The translations under genes were made by a program, and so were the position numbers. Of a DNA stretch of 64,000 nucleotides, positions 11,955 to 26,267 are shown piece by piece. Origin of the DNA: Escherichia phage vB_EcoM-ZQ1; sequence record MW650886.1. One strand, 5' to 3'. How positions within the stretch are numbered: the first letter of the stretch is position 1; the number at the start of each line of letters is the position of its first letter. The notes under the pieces are model-generated. The model did no database searches and was not told the DNA's origin. It worked only from the letters and a program-made list of their open reading frames with translations.

Positions 11955-12031
11955 GGTCCTGTAGCTCAGTCGGTTAGAGCAGTGAACTCATAATTCATTG
12001 GTAGTTGGTTCAAATCCAACCAGGATCACCA
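11955..12031 (+). tRNA. tRNA-Met (anticodon CAT; could also be Ile-lysidine type)
   Basis: Hand-folded cloverleaf: acceptor GGTCCTG/CAGGATC, D-stem GCTC/GAGC, anticodon loop CTCATAA, T-arm GTTGG-TTCAAAT-CCAAC, encoded CCA. Confidence 0.85.
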
Positions 12032-12283: not shown

Positions 12284-12372
12284 GGAAGGTTGCCCGAGAG
12301 GTTTAAGGGACTCGACTGCTAATCGAGTGGGGCTTTTAGCCCCCGAAGGTTCGAATCCTTCACCTTCCGCCA
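12284..12372 (+). tRNA. tRNA-Ser (anticodon GCT), type II with long variable arm
   Basis: Acceptor GGAAGGT/ACCTTCC, D-stem CCC/GGG, anticodon loop CTGCTAA, variable arm TGGGGCTTTTAGCCCCC, T-arm GAAGG-TTCGAAT-CCTTC, encoded CCA. Confidence 0.85.
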
Positions 12373-12588: not shown

Positions 12589-12620
12589 AGCCGGATATCC
12601 TATCCGGCTTTCTTTTTATC
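12589..12620 (+). terminator. Intrinsic terminator downstream of the tRNA cluster
   Basis: Stem AGCCGGATA / TATCCGGCT with loop TCC followed by TTCTTTTTATC. Confidence 0.6.
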
Positions 12621-12741
12621 CCTGTCTTATTATCTTCTTATCGACCCAAGCATGTCCTCCTTTATCGTAGTTTGTTCAATGATACAAAGGGGGTTTAAAA
12701 TTTAACCGTTAACCCCCTATCATAGATTTGAGGATACACTA

Positions 12742-13398
12742 ATGCGTAATGTTTCTATCTGGGAATTGAACGAAGTGATTTCCCATGACACCCCTCCAAT
12801 TGTCAGACTCTTCCGATACAAGGGTGTCAAGCGCACTCTGAATGAGTTCCTGTCGCCTGTTTACGTCTACCGTGATGGCGGGTTCTTCTGCCGCGATAAA
12901 AACATCCCGAACCTTGGTATGACGTTTGATTTGAGTATCAAAGGCCAGGTTGTATTGATGGGTTATGGTAGCCTGGAACAATCTGAGAAAGGCCAGGGCG
13001 CTCCACTTATGGTCTTCGGTTCGTTTGAACAAGCCGTGCACTGGCTGATCAGAAACGGATATGATTTCTATGGCGAAGAAAGCGCCAATTGGCGTCGTCG
13101 CAAGGTCAAGTCTGTTGATCTGGTGGATTTGAATCTGATGTACCAGGCCATGGCTCGCGAGTACGAAAAGAATCTCGTCAAGCCTGTCGCTCAGGAGAAC
13201 AATGTTGTTAACGACGCAACTGAGTCTTCTCATCATGACGTGAACATCGTTCCAGCCTGTGAAACGAAAGCGCCGACACCACCTACTCCTCCGACCAGTC
13301 GTGTTCTGAATGATCAGGGCGCTCCGGTAAAACAAAAGGTCAAGAAGCCGACTTTCATGGAAAACATGATGAAGTTCCTTCGTCTGTTCAAGAAGTAA
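12742..13398 (+). CDS. Hypothetical protein
   Basis: 218-aa ORF with SD GAGGAT; the overlapping antisense ORF 12739..13335 is judged a shadow. Confidence 0.45.
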   Translation: MRNVSIWELNEVISHDTPPIVRLFRYKGVKRTLNEFLSPVYVYRDGGFFCRDKNIPNLGMTFDLSIKGQVVLMGYGSLEQSEKGQGAPLMVFGSFEQAVHWLIRNGYDFYGEESANWRRRKVKSVDLVDLNLMYQAMAREYEKNLVKPVAQENNVVNDATESSHHDVNIVPACETKAPTPPTPPTSRVLNDQGAPVKQKVKKPTFMENMMKFLRLFKK

Positions 13399-13468
13399 TC
13401 CGAGATTCTCCTTTTCTATACTCCTGTAGATACACTATGATAAGCCAATGTCTACAGGAGAAAATAGA

Positions 13469-14662
13469 ATGAACAAGACCATCTTCGATATCCTTTCCCT
13501 CGACCGCAACCTGGTCCATTGGGAAGATTATCTCTACAAGCACACCCCGTGCGAACTTGTCGTCAACCACGAAACCAACCAGCAGGTCTGGTTCAAGCGT
13601 GAAGATTATTTTGCGCCGCTGTCCAATTATGCAAATGGCCAGCAGGGCATCAACGGCAGCAAACTCCGCCAGGCCATCTGGTTGATGGTTGAGCACCTCA
13701 AGGCCGGAGGCTCCCCTGACATCATCCATGGTACTGTCGTTGGTAGTCCGCAGTCCCCTATGGCGACGGCAGTCTCTCGGCACTTCGGCGGCAAGACAAC
13801 CACTGTACTCGGAGCGACCAAACCCACCACCTGTATGAACCATGAAATGGTGAAAATGAGCGCCTGGTTCGGTAGTGAGTTCAACTTCGTCGGCTCGGGT
13901 TACAACAGCACGATCCAGCCGCGCTGTAAGAAGTTGATCGAACAACAGAATCCAAAGGCGTATTATCTGGAGTATGGTATCACCCTCGACCATACAACCC
14001 ACTCCCCTGAGCGCATTGCTGGGTTCCATATGCTGGGTGGCGAGCAGGTTGCCAACATTCCTGATCACATTACTGACCTGATCATCCCAGCCGGATCGTG
14101 CAACTCTTGCACAAGCATCCTGACCGGGCTGGCAATGCATCCGAAGCCTAATCTGAAGCGTGTGTATCTGATTGGCATCGGTCCGAACCGCCTGGACTTC
14201 ATTGAGAGCCGTCTGCGCATCATCGGCAAACATGCCAATCTGCCGCACATTGTCGACTTCACCCGTCGTTATCACGACAACCCAGACTATGTACACGGCA
14301 AGAAGGAGCTTCAGCATGCCTCTAAGAGCGTTTCGCTGGCTGGCCTCCTAAGTGGTATCAGGCAGAAGGAAGAGCCAGAGGTCGTGCTTCCTCGCTTTGA
14401 GGTACACCATTGGGATCTTCATACCACTAATTGGGTTCGTTATAATGACCTGATGGAATATCAGTGGGGTGATATTGAGTTGCATCCTCGCTATGAAGGC
14501 AAGGTCATGACCTGGGTTCAGCAACACAAGCCCGAGTTGCTCAACGAGAACACTCTGTTCTGGATTGTGGGCAGCAAGCCGTACATTGAGCCAATGAAGG
14601 CTGCATGTCCTGAACTGGCTATCCCCGAAGCAGTACCTGTGAACGGATTCACCCCTTCCTGA
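13469..14662 (+). CDS. PLP-dependent enzyme, fold type II (ACC deaminase / D-cysteine desulfhydrase / tryptophan synthase beta-like)
   Basis: Motif GINGSKLRQAIWLM...GTVVGSPQSPMATAVSRHFGGKTTTV resembles the GGNKxRKL...QSNHxRxxAAxA signature of the family; start moved to the ATG with SD AGGAGA. Confidence 0.55.
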   Translation: MNKTIFDILSLDRNLVHWEDYLYKHTPCELVVNHETNQQVWFKREDYFAPLSNYANGQQGINGSKLRQAIWLMVEHLKAGGSPDIIHGTVVGSPQSPMATAVSRHFGGKTTTVLGATKPTTCMNHEMVKMSAWFGSEFNFVGSGYNSTIQPRCKKLIEQQNPKAYYLEYGITLDHTTHSPERIAGFHMLGGEQVANIPDHITDLIIPAGSCNSCTSILTGLAMHPKPNLKRVYLIGIGPNRLDFIESRLRIIGKHANLPHIVDFTRRYHDNPDYVHGKKELQHASKSVSLAGLLSGIRQKEEPEVVLPRFEVHHWDLHTTNWVRYNDLMEYQWGDIELHPRYEGKVMTWVQQHKPELLNENTLFWIVGSKPYIEPMKAACPELAIPEAVPVNGFTPS

Positions 14663-14808: not shown

Positions 14809-15267
14809 ATGCCAACCTCCAAATTGTTTGAATCAGAATACACCAATGACATCCCTGTATGGACTGGTGTTCAAGACGGTATCACGATTGAGCTGTTTGA
14901 TCGTGAAGAGACAGGCGCGGAAGAGATCTATGCAGGCGTTGAAGGCACTGATGTTGTCCGCGCCGCCGTAGCACTTGCTACCTTCCTGGAAGATGCGCCG
15001 ATTGATGGCGTGCCGTTCGAGGCGCACGTAGATCCCAAGGATCCGACCTCTATCATCATTACAGTGAATGGGGTGCCATACACTTCGTACAGTATCGAGA
15101 CGGACGAAGAGGGCAGCGGAGCGCTGTATATTGCCACTGACCTGCAGCTGGAAGACGATGAGATGGATTATCTGATTCAGAACGGGGTGCTGCCACCGTT
15201 TACCGATGAAGAACTGGACACGGAACTGGCCGCCGTCGGGGACGACGAAGACTTCTGGGAAGAATAA
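14809..15267 (+). CDS. Acidic hypothetical protein
   Basis: 152-aa ORF, very acidic C-terminus (DEDFWEE); SD GAGGAA. Confidence 0.5.
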   Translation: MPTSKLFESEYTNDIPVWTGVQDGITIELFDREETGAEEIYAGVEGTDVVRAAVALATFLEDAPIDGVPFEAHVDPKDPTSIIITVNGVPYTSYSIETDEEGSGALYIATDLQLEDDEMDYLIQNGVLPPFTDEELDTELAAVGDDEDFWEE

Positions 15268-15271
15268 GAAA

Positions 15272-15297
15272 AGGGGCTTAACGCCCCTTTCTTTATT
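15272..15297. terminator. Bidirectional intrinsic terminator between convergent genes
   Basis: Hairpin AGGGGC-TTAAC-GCCCCT flanked by A-run upstream and TTTCTTTATTT downstream. Confidence 0.6.
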
Positions 15298-17201: not shown

Positions 17202-18619
17202 ATGACCGTTTTCTATACGAACGTTGCCCGCAGGGGTAATGACCTGTTGATTCGAATTGCAGATGACATGGGTAATCGCCGTCTGTTGAAAAAGAAATTC
17301 GAACCTACTCTCTATTTACCCACGGCTGACTATTCAAATGTTGAAAAGGTCGGTCTTCTCAATGAACCCCTGGTAGCCAAGCAGTTCCCTTCCATGCGTG
17401 ACGCTGACAACTATCTTGAAGAGTACAAGGAAGTCCAGGGTGCTGCCATTTACGGGCAGACCGATTATGCATACCAGTTCATCGCCCATAGCTTTCCTGG
17501 AAAGATTGAGCCGGATTATTCCAACATCCATATTGCTAACCTCGATATCGAAGTGTTCTCCGCCGGGTGGAAAGATGGAAAGATGACCAAAGGTCCATTC
17601 CCTCACCCAACCATTGAGCAGCAGACGTTCAAAGGGAATGAGGCGCGCATTCGCCGCTTCCATCAGCAGGTACTGGCCAACCATGACTTCATCCGTGAGC
17701 ACTTTCCCAGTTCCTTTATCAGCAACAACGTCACTGATCAGTTCCCTATCATTGACAGCAACGGCAAGATCACCCAAGACATGAATGCGGCGTTCCCCAT
17801 TACCCTGATCCAGCTTCAGGATATGGCGACCAATAAGTTCATGGTCTGGGGTATGCCCTGTGCCAAAGACCGCAATAAGTTCGCATACGACACCGAAGAC
17901 AAAGAGATCGGCGGCCTTGAGGTTGTTTATCAGGAGTTCACCACAGAACAAGATCTGCTGCGCTCGTTCCTAGACTTCTGGTCGGAGCGTCAGTTTGATG
18001 GCTGGACTGGCTGGAACATTGAGACGTTTGATAGCCCTTATCTTGTTGAGCGCATGAATCAGGTTCTGGGTGAGGCTGAAACGTCGCGCCTCAGTCCTTG
18101 GGGTATCATTAAGAAGCGTATCATTCGCGATAAGAAGGGCGATATCACGACGTATCAGTTCGTGGGTTGCCCTATGCTCGATTATATGCAGATCTACAAG
18201 AAACACACGTACACCACCCGTGAACGCTACTCTCTTGACTGGATTGCGTATTGTGAGCTGGGTGAGAAGAAGATGGACTACAGTGAGAGCAAGTCGCTCT
18301 TTGATCTGTACTTCAACGACTACTGCAAACACACCCGATATGGTATCAAAGACGTTAAGCTGGTATGGCGACTTGAACAGAAGCTGCGCCTGCTCCAACT
18401 GATGTTCGTCCTGGCCTACCGCACCAAGTCCAACTATGAAGACGGTCTGGGCACTGTGGCTCCGTGGCTGGCCATGTGCTACTATCGCCTGTACGAGAAG
18501 GGGATAGTGCCTAAGATCCAGCGTGTATACGATGGTCCGACCGACTTTGAGGGTGCATACGTCATGGATGTGACACCAGGAATCTACTTCTGGGTCTTCT
18601 CGGAAGATTTGAACTCCCT
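17202..18619 (+). CDS. DNA polymerase, family B (T4 gp43-like), exon 1 (N-terminal exonuclease half)
   Basis: Exo I motif NLDIEV; ORF terminates 5 codons after the sequence DLNSL, which is the first half of polymerase motif A. Confidence 0.75.
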
Positions 18620-19802
18620 TAAGTTAGCAGCATAGGGGCTTTGGTTGGCGACAACCATCGAATAACTCTCTTAATTGCTGGGAAGTCTCTTTAGAGATAA
18701 TCAGCAGCCAAGGTCGGCCACGAAGACCTAAATACTCTGTAACCACGGTGAAGGAGTAAGGTCATGAAGGAAATCAAGAGTCTGTTCTATCGAAATGATT
18801 TGGTAATTGAAGAATCTAAGATAGAAGAATATTTGAAGTTCTGTAAGGAACACAGTTATGATGGTGATGGATACAGTGAACGCCATCATGTACTGCCTCA
18901 GGCACATTATCCTGAGTTCTCTAAAGAAGAATGGAACATCGTAAACCTGTTGTACAAAGATCATGTGGAGGCTCATCGCCTATTGCATGAAGCATTACCA
19001 GAAGATAAATCAGCGTTCTTCGCCTACTTCATGATGAAATCCCATAACGGGGAACTAAGTGAGGAATTGAGAAGAAAGAATGTTGAAATGTTGACGGGAG
19101 AAGGGAATCCTTCGAAGAGGGAAGATGTCAGAAGAAAGATATCCAAATCTAAGAAGGGTGTTAAAAGGGCAGATATGAAGGGTAAGGCTTATTTCGGCGC
19201 TGATAAAGAAACAGCTGAAAGAATTAAAGCCAATTCCAGTCTTGTTCACAAAGGCACTGTCCCCGTAAGACTCCTGGATGGTAGTGTTATCAAAGTTTCA
19301 ACGCAAGACCCGAGATATTTGAGTGGTGAGTTGAAATGTATAATAGGTGCAAAGAAAGGTCAGGTGGGACCAAACACCGACCCAAAAGCGAAGAAGAAAT
19401 TTAAAGATTCTTTAGAGAAAAGGAAGGAAATGTTTGCCAGAATGAGTGGGGAAGAAATAACCACTCATTGCTTGACACAACAGGATTTAGGTAAGAAGAC
19501 TGTAGAGTGGGGCAAGTTGGCAAGAAACTTCAAACGACTCTTTGGTTACGCTGGGTTAAACCCAGATGATTTCCTTGAAGTAGTGGGCGACAAGGTTCAA
19601 CGACTATCGAAAGCAAGACCGACGACTAAGCGTCTGATCTGAAGCGAGTAGAGTAGGGGCAAGCGCCTCGAAATGGAGAGAATCTCTAGACAGTTCTGGA
19701 GATTGTGATATAGTCTGGCCTGTATGGTGACATACAGCAGTGTTCGGTAAACTGAATGACGAACACGGGGGATGAAATAGCGAGCATCCCTGAACACAAG
19801 CG
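18620..19802 (+). mobile_element. Putative group I intron carrying an HNH homing endonuclease, inserted in the DNA polymerase gene
   Basis: Splicing 18619 to 19803 restores the frame and yields DLNSLYPHII (motif A); exon 1 ends in U, intervening sequence ends in G; internal ORF has an HNH motif. Confidence 0.6.
18764..19642 (+). CDS. HNH homing endonuclease (intron-encoded)
   Basis: HNH motif ERHHVLPQAHYPEF...NIVNLLYKDHVEAH; NUMOD-like repeats GEGNPSKREDVRRKISKSKKG; SD AAGGAG. Confidence 0.7.
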   Translation: MKEIKSLFYRNDLVIEESKIEEYLKFCKEHSYDGDGYSERHHVLPQAHYPEFSKEEWNIVNLLYKDHVEAHRLLHEALPEDKSAFFAYFMMKSHNGELSEELRRKNVEMLTGEGNPSKREDVRRKISKSKKGVKRADMKGKAYFGADKETAERIKANSSLVHKGTVPVRLLDGSVIKVSTQDPRYLSGELKCIIGAKKGQVGPNTDPKAKKKFKDSLEKRKEMFARMSGEEITTHCLTQQDLGKKTVEWGKLARNFKRLFGYAGLNPDDFLEVVGDKVQRLSKARPTTKRLI

Positions 19803-21150
19803 ATATCCACACATCATTCAGCAGTACAACCTCGGTCCTGAGACTATCGTTGGCGACAAACACCAGCGCCGCGAGATTATTGAGGCTATGTGTGAAGAGC
19901 TGGCTGCTCAGATGAATAACATGGCAACGCCGATGCACAAACGTCGGTTGATGAAAGCCCTTCACGACAAGCTGTTGCGTGCGGTTGACGAACGCCTGCA
20001 GGTTGTTGATGAGTTGGTTGCCCTGGGTGAGTTCCACTTTGAAACCCTGCGCCGCTACAACGTGTCGTTCACGCCGAACGTTCAATTCTTCAGCAACGAG
20101 AAGATGTCGTTCCTGTCTGAAATCATGCGTGGTATCTACAGCGACCGTAAAGTAGAGAAGGCCAAGGGTCTGAAGTATGAGCAGTGGGCTGGCTGGTGTA
20201 AAGAGATGTCGAAGGGCGACTTCCATCTTGAGTCTGCCATAAAGTCTCGCTACTATGACCCAGAGTGGTATGAAGAGCACAAGAACATTGATCTTGATGC
20301 CCTGACCGAAGTGATGAAGAAGTGGGAAGATCTGGGTGTTGCTCAAGATACCCTACAGCAAGGTCTGAAGATCTTGATGAACGCAGGTTATGGCGCTATC
20401 TCGAACGTCTGGTTCAAAGAGTACTTCAACCTCAACATTGCCGAAGCCATCACCACATCCGGTCAGCTGATCAATAAGTGGAACAAGCGTTACACTGATG
20501 ACTATCTGAACAAGCTGTGTGGTACAACAGGCCAGGACTTCGTCATTGCAGGGGATACCGACTCCAACTACATCTGTATTGAGCGTCTTGTCAAGCAGTT
20601 GTGGCCTGATGTTACTGACCATCATGCTATGGTTGATAATATCGACCAATGGATCAAAGACAACTACCAGCCGAAGACCAATGAGTGGGCACAGCTTCTG
20701 TGTAACACCATGAACGGATTTGAACAGCGCATGGTGTGGGAGCGTGAGGTCATTGCGTCAGCCGCTGTCTGGCGAGCCAAGAAGATGTATGCCATGGCCG
20801 TGTACGACAGTGAGGGTATCAAGTACGAGAAGCCGAAGATCAAGTTCAAAGGTCTGGAAGCCCGCAAGTCCACCACGCCGGAATGGTGTCGTGAGCGTCT
20901 TGTTAAGTGCTATGAGAAGATCCTACTCGGCACCGAAGAGGAAGTACAGACGCTCATCTCCCAGTACAAAGAGGAGTACATGAAGCTCTCTGTAGACGAT
21001 ATCGCCAAGGCATCCGGTGTGTCCGACATAGAGAAGTGTGTGGCCGCCGACGGCTCGTTCATCTCTGGTGCTCACTATGCTGCCAAGGCTTGTGTGGGTT
21101 ACAACCGTCTGGTTGAGAAGAACGAAGACCTCGGGCCTGCCGATGATTGA
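19803..21150 (+). CDS. DNA polymerase, family B, exon 2 (polymerase half)
   Basis: Begins YPHIIQQYNLGPETIV (motif A continuation); motif B KILMNAGYGA; motif C VIAGDTDSNYI. Confidence 0.75.
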
Positions 21151-21446
21151 GTCGGGTGATAAGGTCAACATGGTACTGCTGAAGAATGGCAACCCGTTTG
21201 GCCAGAATTACTTCGCATACCTGAGTTCTTCCCCGAGGAGCTTGGTCTGGGCAAATGGGTGGATTATCAGGCGGCCTTTGAGAAGTCCTTCATTGATCCG
21301 ATTCAGTCTATCCTCGACGTGGTCGGCTGGTCACACAAGCGCCGTGTGAACCTTCTTGCCATGATGCAAAAGAAGAAAGGTTGATTCAATAAACCAAAGG
21401 GGGATATAATTCCCCCTGTTAACCCTTTGACAAACAGGTGATTGAA

Positions 21447-21788
21447 ATGAAACTCAATAAGATTCTTCTGGTGTGTGCTCTGGCTTTCTCTACCACTGCG
21501 TGTTCCACCCTTCTGGACGTTGCATCTACTGTAGACCTTGACGCGCCGACGTTCACCAATGAGCAGGCCGTGTCTAAGATGGAAGACACCATCAAAGCAC
21601 ATGCAGCACTGGACAACACTACCCCAGGTCCGCTCCAAACTGTCTGCAACTATGACGATTCCATCCAGGAAGACGAAACTTACCACTGCATCACCTACGT
21701 GAAGCAGGCCTCCGTCGTTCTGTATGCAGATTGTACCGAAGAACAGTGTGTTGCTACAGGCTACGATAAAGTTGAGGAAGACAAATGA
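21447..21788 (+). CDS. Putative lipoprotein
   Basis: Signal peptide MKLNKILLVCALAFSTTAC with Cys at the lipobox position; SD AGGTGA; track start 21438 is a GTG. Confidence 0.45.
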   Translation: MKLNKILLVCALAFSTTACSTLLDVASTVDLDAPTFTNEQAVSKMEDTIKAHAALDNTTPGPLQTVCNYDDSIQEDETYHCITYVKQASVVLYADCTEEQCVATGYDKVEEDK

Positions 21789-22561
21789 ACAACCTGGTTT
21801 GTATCTATGATATGAAATCAAAGGTCGGTGGCCTGTATCGCGTCCTCGTGGATGTTGACCTGACTTTGGTCGACAGCCTCTCCCCTTGGGTGCAGTGGTT
21901 CAACGAAGAGAATCTCAGCTTATCCAAGCATTATGACGGTCATGGACCAGCGCCGTTCCAGCCGATCACTAAAGAGTGTTATATGTCCCATGCTGGCGAC
22001 CTGGCTATTCTGATGCGTGAACGTGCGCATCCGGCGTGGCTATACCATGAAGTCCAATTGGGGCTGCACAAACAACGTGTGCCAAGCGGTAACGATCCTA
22101 TGGACTGGTGGCGTCGCCCTGACCTGTACGCCAAGATGAACCCACTTCCAGGCGCTTACGAGTTCCTGGTGAATCTGAAGAAGATTCTACTCGAAGACTT
22201 TGACAATGTTGAATTCATCGCAGTGTCCAAGTGTGAGCCGGAACACGAGCGCAGCAAGCGTCAGTTTGTCTATGACAAGTTCCCTGGTATCTTCAACGGG
22301 TTTGTCAGCACCGACGAAAAGCATCTGCTGGCTGGCGATGTCCTGATTGATGACAATCCGAAGTATGTCGAGCCATGCGGCCTGAACAACATCTTTGTCA
22401 TCTTTGTTCCTCAGGGCAATTATGAAAAACTGGATCTTTCGAATTCGGAAGACATGCTTTATATTAAACCAGTAGAAGGCCAGAATCACTTCGACTTCCT
22501 GAACCGCAATATTGTCGAAGTGGTGAACCGCCTGATTAGTCATTATCAATACGTCCGATAG
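21785..22561 (+). CDS. HAD-superfamily phosphatase (5'-deoxyribonucleotidase-like)
   Basis: HAD motif I VLVDVDLTLVDS (DxDxT) and C-terminal DD motif (VLIDDNPKY). Confidence 0.55.
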   Translation: MNNLVCIYDMKSKVGGLYRVLVDVDLTLVDSLSPWVQWFNEENLSLSKHYDGHGPAPFQPITKECYMSHAGDLAILMRERAHPAWLYHEVQLGLHKQRVPSGNDPMDWWRRPDLYAKMNPLPGAYEFLVNLKKILLEDFDNVEFIAVSKCEPEHERSKRQFVYDKFPGIFNGFVSTDEKHLLAGDVLIDDNPKYVEPCGLNNIFVIFVPQGNYEKLDLSNSEDMLYIKPVEGQNHFDFLNRNIVEVVNRLISHYQYVR

Positions 22562-22570
22562 GAGGACATC

Positions 22571-22876
22571 GTGCAAGAACAATCCAAGTTTGGGGAAACC
22601 CCAGACAAGCGTTCCGGTGATAGCGACATGGATAGCGTGATTAACCATGTGAACAACTTCATTCGTCAGCAGGAGACTCCAACTCCTATCGGTGCAGCCA
22701 AGGCTCTTCATGATATACTGGTGAAGATCGGCCAGCGCTCTGAAGCAGATGAAATCTTCTATAACTTCGACGACCAGTATAAAGTGAAGTTTGAAGAGAA
22801 TGGCCACCCACAGGTTGCTGTGTTCTGGGCACCTTGGCTGGGTGGCGTGAGCTGGCGTATTGAGGATGCTGTGTAA
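22571..22876 (+). CDS. Hypothetical protein
   Basis: 101-aa ORF. Confidence 0.4.
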   Translation: MQEQSKFGETPDKRSGDSDMDSVINHVNNFIRQQETPTPIGAAKALHDILVKIGQRSEADEIFYNFDDQYKVKFEENGHPQVAVFWAPWLGGVSWRIEDAV

Positions 22877-24474
22877 TGGCTCGCTACCATTACACATATA
22901 GGATAACTCATGTCCCAACTGGGAGATTCTACGTCGGGATTCGGTCTTGTTCATGCACCCCCGAACAAGACCCCTATATGGGTTCTGGTGTTATCATCAA
23001 AAGGTTGTTGGAATCTCACCCCGCTTCTGAATTCTTAAAGACGATAATAGAAAAGTTTGAAACCAGGTTGGAGGCGTCCGACCTGGAGTCTATTATTGTT
23101 ACGGAAGAGTTACTGTTGGACCCATTATGCCTGAACCTGAAATTGGGAGGAGACAATTCTATCATACCAAACCAATTTAAGGCGGCGTTGGCCAGGACTG
23201 GCAAGAAATACAAATCTGGTATAAATCCTTGGGATGATCCAGAATACCGGGAACGTGTAATAAAATCAATAAAGGAGAACAGGGGTAATTCTCCCTACCC
23301 ATTCATGGTTTCAAATGGTTATTGGTGGGTTTGGAAGGACGCCCGTAGGATCTATGATAGATGGGTGAACAACGGCGGTACTGTGAATCCTACCTGTATG
23401 CCAAAACGAGGATGTGGTTACAAATCTATCGGATTGTGGTATTCTAAACTACTGGACACAGAGTATCGTAATCTAAAGGGCGATGAGAGCGTCTTTCGTA
23501 ATATGATCGCCATGTTTAAAGATGGTTGGATTCCCAAAGAGGACAAACGTTTTATGACTATGATAAATTCTAGCGTGACGCCGGGTATTGTCGTTATTCG
23601 CGGGACAAGTGGAACGGGAAAGGGGACTCGTGTCGTTCAATTCCTTGAGTGGTTGAGAACCAAATATGAGCCAGAACTCATAGAATACGAATTCGACAAG
23701 AAGATGATCCAGGTTGGGTTTTGGTTCAAGGAAATCAATCTGGTGTTCATCGGCAAGTATACAGTGTCCAACAAATCAGGTCTAGCATCATGGACTTCTA
23801 TGGATTTCATACACTCCACTCTCAAGTCTTCTGAGATGGCCAATTCGTTGTTGAAGTATCTCAAAATAAAGTTCAAAGATGCAACTATCATCTTGGAGGG
23901 GGAACCTATGATGCAGAGCCATCGATGGCGTCCCGAGTTCGTACACCAGGACTTGGGGTTCAACAACATGGCATTCATCTCCTTTATTTACCAAGCGCGG
24001 GAAGATTACGACAAACGTATCATCGGTCGTTCTGGTAAGGCGGCGAAGGACACTGGCTGGGGAAGAAATGAACAATACACCAAGGATCACGTCAAGATCA
24101 TGGGTGAGTACGCTTCCATCGGATACGAACTTGAACCAGACTCTCAGAATGAGTTGTTCATTGCAAAGGCAGCGAATGAAAATGGTGTAAAGGCAGTTGG
24201 TTGGAATATACTGAAATTCTTCGATGCCCCTCTCCACTTTATTGGTAGTTTTATTATAGATTTTGTTGGATTGAGAGGGTTGTCCAAAGAAGAGTTTCAA
24301 AAATATTGCGACACCACACCAATGTTGCGCAAGATTAAGGGTAGCAACCCTTTGGCGCACAGAGTCCCTGAGAAGCCGCAGAAGGCATCCAAAACTAAAA
24401 CCAAGGCGAGCGCCCAGCCAGAAGCAACGAAGGCAGCGTCGCGCTCTCTCCTTGACCTGATGAAGAAGGGGTGA
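22876..24474 (+). CDS. P-loop kinase with GIY-YIG-like N-terminal extension (candidate 5-hydroxymethyl-dU DNA kinase-type enzyme)
   Basis: N-terminus YHYTYRITHVPTGRFYVGIRS resembles a GIY-YIG nuclease motif; Walker A GIVVIRGTSGTGKGT at about residue 235, preceded by an internal ATG. Confidence 0.5.
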   Translation: MARYHYTYRITHVPTGRFYVGIRSCSCTPEQDPYMGSGVIIKRLLESHPASEFLKTIIEKFETRLEASDLESIIVTEELLLDPLCLNLKLGGDNSIIPNQFKAALARTGKKYKSGINPWDDPEYRERVIKSIKENRGNSPYPFMVSNGYWWVWKDARRIYDRWVNNGGTVNPTCMPKRGCGYKSIGLWYSKLLDTEYRNLKGDESVFRNMIAMFKDGWIPKEDKRFMTMINSSVTPGIVVIRGTSGTGKGTRVVQFLEWLRTKYEPELIEYEFDKKMIQVGFWFKEINLVFIGKYTVSNKSGLASWTSMDFIHSTLKSSEMANSLLKYLKIKFKDATIILEGEPMMQSHRWRPEFVHQDLGFNNMAFISFIYQAREDYDKRIIGRSGKAAKDTGWGRNEQYTKDHVKIMGEYASIGYELEPDSQNELFIAKAANENGVKAVGWNILKFFDAPLHFIGSFIIDFVGLRGLSKEEFQKYCDTTPMLRKIKGSNPLAHRVPEKPQKASKTKTKASAQPEATKAASRSLLDLMKKG

Positions 24475-24674: not shown

Positions 24675-25048
24675 AAATTCAAATTCCTCGCGATGCTGTG
24701 GCTGTTGCGATCGACTACACCGGAAACGCCAAGCACATTACTGCCGTGCGCCTGATTCCTGAAAAGAACTGCGTCATCCCTCAGTTCCAACTGAATGCCA
24801 ATCCGTCATCCAAAGACTTTGGCAAGTGGTTGCAGGCTGCTCCGTTCCGTACCCAGACGAACGCTCAGATGTTCATCTCGAGTAAGACCCACACCGCAGC
24901 CCGTCTGTGGTTCGTGACCGCTGACCGTCGCTTTGTCGATATGTGGGAACGTCCGATGGGGTTCGTGAAGCCGGAAGATATTCAGCTGGCTCCTGAGCCT
25001 GAAGCTGTGGCTCCTGAAGAGGAAGCGAAAGATGCATCATTTATCTAA
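24671..25048 (+). CDS. Hypothetical protein
   Basis: 125 aa; ATG overlaps the upstream stop (ATGA); the track ORF 24536..25048 has an unlikely upstream start. Confidence 0.45.
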   Translation: MKIQIPRDAVAVAIDYTGNAKHITAVRLIPEKNCVIPQFQLNANPSSKDFGKWLQAAPFRTQTNAQMFISSKTHTAARLWFVTADRRFVDMWERPMGFVKPEDIQLAPEPEAVAPEEEAKDASFI

Positions 25049-26267
25049 AATGCCGACGGGCTATACGCCTCCGGCTGAATGGAAGTACCCGATTGACCTG
25101 GCTGTTGATTATCGCAAGCCTGAGAATCGCATGTACCTGCTCAAGGCTTGGGTGGAGGCGCTGTCCTACACAGAAGAGCACAACCAGCAGATGCGTCTGA
25201 TGGACTATGCGATCGAAGTCACTGAAGGCATCAGCCTCGAACAGAAAGTCGAGCGCAAGATCTGGATGGCATTCCTGTGGGGTTGTTGCTATAACGCCGT
25301 CGGGCCGTGGACGATCTACAGTGAGTTCCCTGTGCCGCCTCAGTCTAAGGAAGATATGCAGCGCTTCTCTGATTGGTACAACCTGAACTTTGATCGCATG
25401 CGATTCGATACCGACTGTCGCTACCGCAAGTCCAAGATGATTCCGTGTGTTCAGTCCTATATTGACTGGCTGGCTGGCCGTACTCAATATGACGCTTTCC
25501 GTGGGATGTTGGTGTGCATCGATAAGACAGAACAATTCACCCAGCTGTGGGACACGGCGATGTCCTGGAAATACTTCGGTCGCCTGAGCGCCTGGAACTT
25601 CCTGGAAGCCCTGAACATGGTATTCGGAAACGAATACACCATTGACGTCCCTGGCTTCATGTTGCGTGATCGTGATGGAAGCGAGTCCAACCGTAATGGC
25701 GCGGCGTTCTTGTCCAACCGTGACGATTGGGTGACTAAACACGGGAAGAAAAAGATCAACGGTTGTCCTATCATGGATGAAGAGTGTGACATCCTTGAGG
25801 CCGACCTTGAGCAGGCGTTCCAGGATTGTGTGGCTGAGTTCGGGCACCTGACGTTCATCAACCGCCTGAACTTTGAAACCTCCGGCGCTTGTTGGCTGAA
25901 GAAATTCTTCCGACTGAAGAATACCCGTTACATCGGGTGGGACGCAGAGCGTACTTGGGATGAGATAGACTACATGGAACGCGTCTGGCCTGAATACTCC
26001 TGCGCAGCGCTCTGGGAAGCCCGTTCGCTCTGGCTGCCAGATACCCTGTTGTGCGAAAAGGCTCCTGTAGGGCACGTTCCAGGCGTCCAGAAGTGGAAGA
26101 TGCCTGTATTCTTTGAGACTGGTGTTCCTCTGCATATCTGGCACCTGCAAAAGGGTACGCGCTGGGAACCATCCGAGGTATGTACGAACCTGAAGATGCC
26201 TGTGCGCAAGGTTGAGGACAAGTCGAAGTCCAGCAGCGTCAACCTCATGGCACTCTTGAAACGCTGA
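25032..26267 (+). CDS. Hypothetical protein (candidate DNA base-modification enzyme by context)
   Basis: 411-aa ORF directly downstream of the kinase; SD GAGGAAG; the antisense 369-aa ORF 25041..26150 is judged a shadow. Confidence 0.45.
   Translation: MHHLSKMPTGYTPPAEWKYPIDLAVDYRKPENRMYLLKAWVEALSYTEEHNQQMRLMDYAIEVTEGISLEQKVERKIWMAFLWGCCYNAVGPWTIYSEFPVPPQSKEDMQRFSDWYNLNFDRMRFDTDCRYRKSKMIPCVQSYIDWLAGRTQYDAFRGMLVCIDKTEQFTQLWDTAMSWKYFGRLSAWNFLEALNMVFGNEYTIDVPGFMLRDRDGSESNRNGAAFLSNRDDWVTKHGKKKINGCPIMDEECDILEADLEQAFQDCVAEFGHLTFINRLNFETSGACWLKKFFRLKNTRYIGWDAERTWDEIDYMERVWPEYSCAALWEARSLWLPDTLLCEKAPVGHVPGVQKWKMPVFFETGVPLHIWHLQKGTRWEPSEVCTNLKMPVRKVEDKSKSSSVNLMALLKR

What the first reader, a model, noticed from the sequence alone, without database searches (positions are those of the whole stretch)
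13469..14662. PLP fold-type II enzyme (ACC deaminase / D-cysteine desulfhydrase-like) in a phage genome
The motif pattern GxxGSKxR...G(T/G)xxSxx...A matches the tryptophan-synthase-beta superfamily. Such enzymes are rare in phages. Possible roles are amino-acid-derived DNA modification (adding or trimming an amino-acid moiety on a modified base) or metabolic reprogramming.
Basis: partly seen in the sequence, partly recalled or inferred. Interest (0 to 1): 0.5.

Follow-up and report, generated by a model that had tools for sequence, protein, structure and literature searches.

The report
Known phage DNA-modification decarboxylase (ViI gp226 ortholog)
This gene is real and is the already-characterised vitamin-B6 (PLP) enzyme that ViI-like phages use to trim a serine attached to thymine in their DNA into an aminoethoxy group (5-NeOmdU), so the finding is correct but ordinary.

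Summary

Function does not need to be guessed. The protein is 91% identical over 395 aa to Salmonella phage ViI gp226. Lee et al. (NAR 2021, PMC8989533) purified gp226 and showed it is a PLP-dependent decarboxylase that converts O-seryl-thymidine in DNA into 5-(2-aminoethoxy)methyl-dU (5-NeOmdU).

Two partner genes lie 8–12 kb downstream in ViI order: a 5-hmdU DNA kinase-2 (Pfam HMUD2) and the serine:DNA transferase (Pfam ADDT, 89% identical to gp247). The closest published genome, LHE287, carries all six pathway genes. A 51%-identical homolog sits in Vibrio phage 1.255.O, whose DNA was shown to contain 5-NeOmdU.

"Metabolic reprogramming" is not supported. Novelty: already known. The residual interest is that no structure exists for this fold-type II decarboxylase that works on DNA.

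The parts
13469..14662 (+). Gene for the PLP-dependent O-seryl-thymidine (DNA) decarboxylase, ortholog of ViI gp226 (397 aa). An alternative in-frame ATG lies at 13448.
13456..13460 (+). Shine-Dalgarno-like AGGAG, 8 nt before the ATG at 13469.
   Evidence: Read directly from the sequence. The LHE287 annotation uses the same start.
13646..13669 (+). Motif G60-I-N-G-S-K65-L-R67. Lys65 (codon 13661-13663) is the predicted internal-aldimine (PLP Schiff-base) lysine.
   Evidence: Invariant in 67 homologs. Aligns with ViI K92, M6 gp52 K36 and ACC deaminase GNK51. K92 and K36 were proposed as the aldimine lysines in PMC8989533.
13745..13753 (+). S93-P94-Q95 loop, aligned with Ser78-Asn79-Gln80 of ACC deaminase. 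The Asn is replaced by an invariant Pro.
   Evidence: Invariant columns. Profile alignment to 1rqx/1f2d. Any role in switching the chemistry is inference.
14087..14116 (+). P207-A-G-S-C-N-S-C-T-S216, predicted PLP-phosphate-binding loop.
   Evidence: G209 and N212 invariant, S210 and S213 at least 90% conserved. Aligned with the 'VTGSTTAG' loop of yeast ACC deaminase.
14483..14503 (+). H339-P-R-Y342-E343-G-K345 motif, counterpart of ACC deaminase D-P-V-Tyr294-Glu295-G-K.
   Evidence: H339, P340, Y342, E343 and K345 invariant. Weak local alignments to 1rqx/1f2d (sub-threshold second stretches). The role of Glu295 at the pyridine nitrogen comes from my own knowledge of ACC deaminase.
14279..14368 (+). 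Lineage-specific variable loop (aa 271-300), low model confidence.
   Evidence: Alignment occupancy 25-48% and conservation 0.08-0.16. pLDDT 51-73. Function unknown.
22876..24474 (+). Pathway partner: 5-hmdU DNA kinase 2 (HMUD2 domain, aa 236-531) read in one frame with an N-terminal GIY-YIG homing endonuclease (aa 1-~227). Possible internal starts at 23554/23560 after GAGGA.
   Evidence: Pfam PF18747 E=3.8e-156. phrog_15209/314 endonuclease. 47% identity to ViI gp243. Junction sequence.
25032..26267 (+). Pathway partner: amino acid:DNA transferase (serine:DNA transferase, ortholog of ViI gp247), which makes the O-seryl-thymidine substrate.
   Evidence: 89% identity over 411 aa to ViI gp247. 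Pfam ADDT PF18724 E=3.2e-59. Function of gp247 from PMC8989533.
12742..15267 (+). Probable three-gene transcription unit (phrog_4050 unknown, PLP gene, phrog_3852 unknown). It is bounded by hairpin+T-run sites at 12589-12609 and 15270-15290, with a weak promoter-like site at 12694-12723.
   Evidence: Consensus scans only. Flanking genes are syntenic with Vi01_181 and Vi01_184 at 50% and 64% identity. Weak evidence.

Best explanation
The gene encodes the last enzyme of the 5-NeOmdU thymidine-hypermodification pathway of ViI-like (Ackermannviridae) phages. It is a fold-type II PLP-dependent decarboxylase that works on DNA, not on free amino acids.

**Pathway, shown for ViI.**
1. A ThyA-like dUMP hydroxymethylase supplies 5-hmdU, which is polymerised into phage DNA.
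2. 5-hmdU DNA kinase phosphorylates the hydroxymethyl group.
3. The amino acid:DNA transferase (gp247) displaces the phosphate with the side-chain oxygen of serine. This gives O-seryl-thymidine and leaves the serine alpha-amine free.
4. gp226 removes the alpha-carboxylate as CO2. This leaves 5-(2-aminoethoxy)methyl-dU, which replaces about 40% of T and blocks many nucleases.

**Inferred for this protein.**
- Lys65 holds PLP as an internal aldimine.
- The free amine of the DNA-borne serine transaldiminates.
- The carboxylate sits perpendicular to the cofactor ring and leaves.
- The carbanion is stabilised by the pyridine ring, whose nitrogen faces Glu343.
- C-alpha is then protonated and Lys65 releases the product.
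For: **Orthology and active site.**
- 91% identity with no gaps over 395 aa to ViI gp226.
- None of the 34 differences lies in a column at least 80% conserved across the family.
- K65 aligns with ViI K92.
- dN/dS is 0.054.

**Biochemistry of the ortholog.**
- Purified ViI gp226 is yellow with absorbance at 410-425 nm.
- It converts O-SerT DNA to the 301-u nucleoside.
- It loses one carbon from 13C3,15N-serine-labelled substrate.
- Omitting it from lysate mixes leaves a +44-u intermediate (PMC8989533; PMC5889632).

**Context in the window.**
- HMUD2 kinase and ADDT transferase lie downstream in ViI order.
- The closest genome, LHE287 (98.5% identical protein), has all six pathway genes at 77-92% identity.

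**Product measured in phages with homologs.**
- CBA6, homolog 91.9% identical (H34).
- Vibrio phage 1.255.O, homolog 51% identical with every key motif kept.
- Taipeivirus phiHS2, which is reported to encode homologs of all ViI pathway proteins.

**Fold and PLP site.**
Against: - Nothing was measured for this phage. Neither the activity of this protein nor the base composition of its DNA is known.
- I found no direct measurement for any Aglimvirinae phage. It is only predicted by Lee 2018 and the 2024 review.
- The dUMP hydroxymethylase, gp67 and gp160 genes lie outside the 64-kb window.
- The kinase-2 copy here is diverged (47% to ViI) and fused in frame to a homing endonuclease.
- The Pfam PALP hit is just below the gathering score.
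- The solved fold neighbours listed are deaminases, desulfhydrases, beta-replacement enzymes and racemases; none is described as a decarboxylase. The stereo-electronic details are therefore inference.
Confidence: 0.93

Rival explanations
1. It is a metabolic enzyme acting on free small molecules. Candidates are ACC deaminase, D-cysteine desulfhydrase, or serine/threonine dehydratase (as many GenBank/UniRef records name it), used to reprogramme host amino-acid metabolism.
For: The best structural neighbours are exactly these enzymes. Public names include 'threonine ammonia lyase', 'threonine dehydratase' and 'threonine deaminase'. Lys51, Ser78, Tyr294 and Glu295 of ACC deaminase are all conserved.
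Against: - Only 17-19% structure-aligned identity and no NCBIfam family hit at E<=0.01.
- Asn79 is replaced by an invariant Pro.
- About 120 residues lie outside the shared core.
- The 91%-identical ortholog was shown to act on DNA-borne O-SerT.
- The gene co-occurs with the kinase and transferase genes of the DNA pathway.
- The public names are superfamily-level transfers, not tests.
Confidence: 0.03
2. It acts on DNA-borne O-seryl-thymidine but, wholly or partly, by beta-elimination, the typical fold-type II reaction on O-substituted serines. That would regenerate 5-hmdU and pyruvate plus ammonia, so the enzyme would tune or erase the modification rather than only complete it.
For: O-SerT is chemically an O-substituted serine, like O-acetylserine or O-phosphoserine, which are classic fold-type II substrates (my own knowledge). 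The fold neighbours include beta-eliminating and beta-replacing enzymes. Modification is only partial in vivo, about 40% and 16% of T.
Against: Purified ViI gp226 gave the decarboxylated 301-u product, with loss of a single labelled carbon. No such side reaction is mentioned in the passages read. No evidence here addresses it.
Confidence: 0.03
3. It decarboxylates free serine to ethanolamine, which is then transferred to DNA.
For: The final adduct is formally an ethanolamine ether. Lee 2018 raised the origin of the ethanolamine group as an open question.
Against: In ViI the transferase uses serine itself. Leaving out gp226 gives a DNA-bound +44-u intermediate, and purified gp226 acts on O-SerT DNA.
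Confidence: 0.01

Closest known systems
Salmonella phage ViI (Vi01) gp226, Vi01_182, YP_004327553: PLP-dependent O-seryl-thymidine decarboxylase of the 5-NeOmdU pathway (Lee et al. 2018 PNAS; Lee et al. 2021 NAR)
   Same: 91% identity over 395 aa without gaps. Same catalytic lysine position (K65 = K92). Same neighbours and gene order: tail-needle region, unknown gene, PLP gene, DNA polymerase, kinase 2, transferase.
   Different: 34 substitutions, all at poorly conserved positions. ViI annotates a start about 27 codons further upstream (424 vs 397 aa). ViI has one extra small gene (Vi01_183) directly downstream. The partner kinase 2 here is a diverged, endonuclease-fused version.
Pseudomonas phage M6 gp52, YP_001294560: PLP-dependent decarboxylase converting C-alpha-glycinyl-thymidine to 5-NedU
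   Same: Same superfamily and the same job: decarboxylating an amino acid already attached to thymine in DNA. The proposed aldimine lysine K36 aligns with K65.
   Different: Only a distant relative: hhalign E=2e-4, 22% identity over 175 columns, 278 aa versus 397 aa. Its substrate is C-linked glycine and needs a radical-SAM isomerase first. It lacks the S-P-Q loop.
ACC deaminase / D-cysteine desulfhydrase sub-family of fold-type II PLP enzymes (PDB 1j0a, 4d8t/4d97, 1rqx, 1f2d)
   Different: - 17-19% identity.
- Asn79 replaced by Pro94.
- About 120 extra residues, including an N-terminal extension and a variable loop at aa 271-300.
- The reaction is decarboxylation rather than ring-opening deamination or desulfhydration.
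- The substrate is a base in polymeric DNA rather than a free amino acid.
- No NCBIfam match.

Membership tests
ViI gp226-type O-seryl-thymidine decarboxylase (5-NeOmdU pathway) | Full-length orthology to the biochemically characterised protein | tested here: met
   91% identity, 395 aa, no gaps. Same PHROG, E=1e-237. No substitution at conserved columns.
ViI gp226-type O-seryl-thymidine decarboxylase (5-NeOmdU pathway) | Lysine equivalent to ViI K92 (proposed internal aldimine) | tested here: met
   K65 aligns with K92. Invariant in 67 homologs.
ViI gp226-type O-seryl-thymidine decarboxylase (5-NeOmdU pathway) | Co-occurrence with 5-hmdU DNA kinase and serine:DNA transferase (AADT) in the same genome | tested here: met
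   HMUD2 PF18747 E=4e-156 at 22876..24474 and ADDT PF18724 E=3e-59 at 25032..26267. 89% identity to gp247.
ViI gp226-type O-seryl-thymidine decarboxylase (5-NeOmdU pathway) | Genome also encodes dUMP hydroxymethylase, kinase 1 (gp67) and aGPT-Pplase 1 (gp160) | tested here: inconclusive
   No match inside the 64-kb window; by ViI gene order these genes would lie beyond its ends. All are present in the closest published genome, LHE287, at 77-88% identity.
ViI gp226-type O-seryl-thymidine decarboxylase (5-NeOmdU pathway) | Decarboxylation of O-SerT in DNA, and 5-NeOmdU in virion DNA | not testable with these tools
   Shown for ViI gp226. The base was measured in ViI, CBA6, CBA120, 1.255.O and phiHS2, but not for this phage.
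Fold-type II PLP enzymes (tryptophan synthase beta superfamily, Pfam PALP PF00291) | The fold | tested here: met
Fold-type II PLP enzymes (tryptophan synthase beta superfamily, Pfam PALP PF00291) | Schiff-base lysine and phosphate-binding loop in register | tested here: met
   Profile alignment K65 to K51, and AGSCNS to the ACCD phosphate loop. Positions invariant or nearly so.
Fold-type II PLP enzymes (tryptophan synthase beta superfamily, Pfam PALP PF00291) | Score at or above Pfam's gathering cut-off | tested here: not met
   32.4 bits against a 35-bit cut-off, covering aa 25-249 only. Several homologs carry a precomputed PF00291 hit. Membership rests on structure.
ACC deaminase / D-cysteine desulfhydrase (functional family) | Match to curated family models | tested here: not met
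   No NCBIfam family at E<=0.01.
ACC deaminase / D-cysteine desulfhydrase (functional family) | Active-site set Lys51, Ser78, Asn79, Tyr294, Glu295 | tested here: not met
   Lys, Ser, Tyr and Glu are conserved, but Asn79 is an invariant Pro94.
ACC deaminase / D-cysteine desulfhydrase (functional family) | Activity on free ACC or D-cysteine | not testable with these tools
   Not reported for ViI gp226 in the passages read.

The most novel reading that the evidence does not exclude
The family may be a fold-type II decarboxylase that arose from the ACC deaminase / D-cysteine desulfhydrase clade through a small active-site change. Its relatives handle D-amino acids. If the L-serine adduct binds in the pose those enzymes use, the carboxylate rather than the C-alpha hydrogen would sit perpendicular to the cofactor.

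Two features could contribute. The carboxylate-loop Asn is replaced by an invariant Pro94. The roughly 120 added residues, including the variable loop at aa 271-300, could form a surface that reads a modified base in duplex DNA. The same active site might also allow a minor beta-elimination 'eraser' reaction that would help explain why only part of the T is modified.

None of this is specific to this phage. It would apply to ViI gp226 as well.
Probability: 0.2. Interest if true: 0.4.

Novelty: already known. Interest (0 to 1): 0.15.

Why it matters
**What the pathway does.** 5-NeOmdU replaces a large share of thymine in Ackermannviridae DNA. About 60% of commercial restriction enzymes fail to cut DNA containing it, and it is thought to blunt other DNA-targeting defences. 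This matters for phage therapy candidates, for cloning, and for sequencing these genomes.

**What this finding adds.** The practical value is annotation. Most public records call this gene 'hypothetical', 'threonine ammonia-lyase' or similar, and PHROG 3650 is labelled 'unknown function', although the function was demonstrated in 2021. Nothing about the window copy departs from the known enzyme.

**What remains open.** The open question is structural and applies to the whole family. No structure has been solved. It is not known how a fold-type II enzyme is steered towards decarboxylation, or how it reaches a base in DNA.

Tried and rejected
- **PDB sequence search** with the single protein found nothing at E<=1. 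Only the family profile reached ACC deaminase.
- **NCBIfam** gave no family.
- **Rfam gathering scan** of the whole window found only two tRNAs and no intron model at the polymerase insertion.
- **Model coordinates** are not exposed to scripts. I therefore could not measure active-site geometry or surface charge, and the active-site comparison rests on sequence and profile alignment.
- **First script** failed on file layout and was repeated.
- **dN/dS for the kinase domain** failed because I sliced it out of frame, and at 47% identity it would be saturated anyway.
- **Antisense ORF 13388..14317 (309 aa)** was considered and rejected as the real gene. The + frame has dN/dS 0.054, the annotated relatives examined (ViI, LHE287, 1.255.O) place the gene on the + frame, and the + frame product has the homologs.
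- **'Free-serine decarboxylase' and 'metabolic deaminase'** readings were considered and rejected (see rivals).
- **Not used:** the large representative-protein search and the metagenome scans, because the answer did not depend on them.

Full report
**1. The observation**

The window holds an ORF at 13448..14662 on the + strand. AGGAG lies 8 nt upstream of it, and the closest published genome annotates the same 397-aa product. The motif GxxGSKxR is present exactly as G60-I-N-G-S-K65-L-R67.

The signal is well beyond chance:
- Pfam PALP scores E=7.7e-8. It is 32.4 bits against a 35-bit gathering cut-off and covers only aa 25-249.
- PHROG 3650 scores E=1e-237 and is labelled 'unknown function'.
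- dN/dS is 0.054 against the ViI gene at dS of about 1.

A 309-aa ORF on the opposite strand inside the gene is best explained as a by-product of the coding frame.

**2. Source**

The region is 96.9% identical to Escherichia phage LHE287. It is 89-96% identical to SKML-39, AV101, Ag3 and other Ackermannviridae. The polymerase-kinase segment shares its insertions with Dickeya phage LIMEstone1 and Escherichia phage PC3, which belong to Aglimvirinae.

**3. Fold and cofactor site**

I aligned 67 full-length homologs, down to 42% identity. Invariant positions include K65, N62, G63, R67, S93-P94-Q95, G209, N212 and H339-P340-x-Y342-E343-x-K345.

AlphaFold2 on this alignment gave pLDDT 93 and pTM 0.91. 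The only weak stretch is aa ~275-310.

| Search | Best matches | Score |
|---|---|---|
| Foldseek vs PDB | Salmonella D-cysteine desulfhydrase, then ACC deaminases | E=1e-11 |

About 275 of 397 residues align.

The family profile against PDB sequences aligns these features:
- 'NGsK65lR' with ACC deaminase 'GGNK51xRK'.
- S93-P94-Q95 with S78-N79-Q80.
- The AGSCNS loop with the phosphate loop.
- More weakly (sub-threshold second stretches), 'HPtYEGK' with 'DPVY294E295GK'.

**4. What it is**

The protein is 91% identical over 395 aa, without gaps, to ViI gp226 (Vi01_182, YP_004327553). K65 falls on ViI K92. None of the 34 differences lies in a column at least 80% conserved across the family.

Lee et al. 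2018 (PMC5889632) showed that lysates expressing gp67, gp160, gp226, gp243 and gp247 make 5-NeOmdU on 5-hmdU DNA. Lee et al. 2021 (PMC8989533) then showed the following:
- Omitting gp226 leaves a nucleoside 44 u heavier.
- Purified gp226 is yellow and absorbs at 410-425 nm.
- It converts O-seryl-thymidine in DNA into the 301-u nucleoside.
- It removes exactly one carbon from isotope-labelled substrate.

They named K92 as the likely aldimine lysine. The second characterised enzyme of this kind, M6 gp52, is only distantly related (hhalign E=2e-4), but its K36 aligns with K65.

**5. Context**

Gene order follows ViI. Downstream lie three relevant genes:
- The DNA polymerase.
- A 5-hmdU DNA kinase-2 domain (Pfam HMUD2, E=4e-156).
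- The amino acid:DNA transferase (Pfam ADDT, E=3e-59; 89% identical to the serine:DNA transferase gp247).

The dUMP hydroxymethylase, gp67 and gp160 fall outside the 64-kb window. LHE287 encodes all six pathway proteins at 77-92% identity.

The two unknown genes flanking the PLP gene are only 50% and 64% identical to their ViI counterparts. The PLP gene is therefore far better conserved than its neighbours.

**6. How far the function holds**

5-NeOmdU was measured in four phages by Lee 2018: ViI, CBA6, CBA120 and Vibrio phage 1.255.O. Two of these are informative here:
- CBA6 has a homolog 91.9% identical (H34).
- 1.255.O has a homolog 51% identical over the full length, with every key motif retained.

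A 2026 preprint measured the base in Taipeivirus phiHS2, where it replaces 16.4% of dT.

Lee 2018 lists LIMEstone, SKML-39 and Ag3 among ViI-like phages expected to carry the base. A 2024 review states that the genes are conserved across the family. I found no direct measurement for an Aglimvirinae phage.

**7. Mechanism**

*Shown for the ortholog:* PLP is bound, the substrate is DNA-borne O-SerT, the reaction is loss of CO2, and the product is 5-NeOmdU.

*Inferred here from alignment and general PLP chemistry:*
- Lys65 forms the internal aldimine.
- The free alpha-amine of the ether-linked serine transaldiminates.
- The carboxylate is held perpendicular to the ring (Dunathan's principle).
- Glu343, the counterpart of ACC deaminase Glu295, faces the pyridine nitrogen and strengthens the electron sink.
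- C-alpha is protonated and Lys65 releases the product.

The invariant Pro94 in place of the carboxylate-loop Asn79 is a candidate determinant of the changed chemistry. The ~120 residues outside the shared core are candidate determinants of DNA access. Neither is tested. None of the solved fold neighbours listed is described as a decarboxylase, and no close homolog is in the PDB.

**8. Rivals**

- *Metabolic deaminase, desulfhydrase or dehydratase.* This is how many records name the gene. It conflicts with the ortholog's biochemistry, the absent NCBIfam match, the Asn-to-Pro change and the genomic context.
- *Beta-elimination on O-SerT.* This is chemically plausible for the fold but is not what was observed.
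- *Decarboxylation of free serine.* This was excluded for ViI.

**9. Verdict**

The gene is an ortholog of an enzyme characterised in 2018-2021 and treated as a family hallmark. Novelty: already known. Interest: low.

**10. Side observations**

*DNA polymerase insertion.*
- The polymerase is interrupted after the codon matching ViI residue 473 by 1183 nt (18621..19803).
- The insertion carries an HNH endonuclease gene.
- LIMEstone1 annotates the same element as 'putative intron I-LimII'.
- Rfam finds no intron model there.
- LHE287 has an intact gene.

*Polymerase frameshift.* The polymerase 3' part carries a +1 insertion near 21133 and a -1 deletion near 21220 relative to LHE287. This puts three stop codons in frame. 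PC3 has no such defect.

*Endonuclease-kinase ORF.*
- The kinase-2 ORF (532 aa) begins with a GIY-YIG homing endonuclease.
- An SD-like GAGGA and in-frame ATGs at 23554/23560 lie just before the kinase domain.
- LIMEstone1 and PC3 annotate this ORF only as 'homing endonuclease F-LimXI'.
- The kinase domain is therefore hidden in public annotation.

Noticed in passing
window 17202..21378 (insertion 18621..19803; HNH ORF 18764..19642): The DNA polymerase gene is split after the codon matching ViI residue 473 by a 1183-nt insertion carrying an HNH homing endonuclease (phrog_12434, E=2e-159). LIMEstone1 annotates the same element as 'putative intron I-LimII', and LHE287 has an intact polymerase. 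Rfam (gathering threshold) finds no group I/II intron here. Whether this is an intron or a truly split gene is open.
   Followed up: partly
window ~21133 and ~21220 (stops from 21148): Relative to LHE287, the polymerase 3' part has a +1 insertion and, about 88 nt later, a -1 deletion. Three stop codons fall in the reading frame between them. PC3 has an intact ORF here. This is either a sequencing/assembly error (possibly linked to modified bases) or a real defect.
   Followed up: partly
window 22876..24474: One 532-aa ORF joins a GIY-YIG homing endonuclease (aa 1-~227, motif YTYRITHVPTGRFYVG) to the 5-hmdU DNA kinase-2 domain (aa 236-531). GAGGA plus in-frame ATGs at 23554/23560 could give a stand-alone 304-306-aa kinase. 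The kinase domain is only 47% identical to ViI gp243, while LHE287's unfused copy is 84%. LIMEstone1 (531 aa) and PC3 (498 aa) annotate the ORF only as 'homing endonuclease F-LimXI', which hides the kinase.
   Followed up: partly
window 13469..14662 and public records: Public naming of this gene is inconsistent and outdated. Names seen include 'hypothetical protein', 'threonine ammonia lyase', 'threonine dehydratase', 'threonine deaminase' and 'PLP-dependent enzyme', and PHROG 3650 is labelled 'unknown function'. The decarboxylase function was shown in 2021.
   Followed up: yes
window 12742..13398 and 14809..15267: The two unknown-function genes flanking the PLP gene (phrog_4050, phrog_3852) are syntenic with ViI but only 50% and 64% identical, against 91% for the PLP gene. 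ViI has an extra small gene (Vi01_183) between the PLP gene and the downstream one, and it is absent here.
   Followed up: partly
window 11955..12031 and 12284..12372: Two tRNA genes, tRNA-Met(CAT) and tRNA-Ser(GCT), lie in a gene-poor stretch just upstream of the operon. ViI has an unannotated ~4-kb gap at the matching place.
   Followed up: no
window 21785..22561: A 258-aa protein with a 5'(3')-deoxyribonucleotidase (NT5C) domain (E=2.8e-8) sits between the polymerase and the kinase, as in ViI (Vi01_194). It might help bias the pyrimidine nucleotide pool, but this was not examined.
   Followed up: no
window 13388..14317 (- strand): A 309-aa ORF runs antisense inside the PLP gene. There is no support for it as a gene, since selection and homologs all fit the + frame.
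   Followed up: partly
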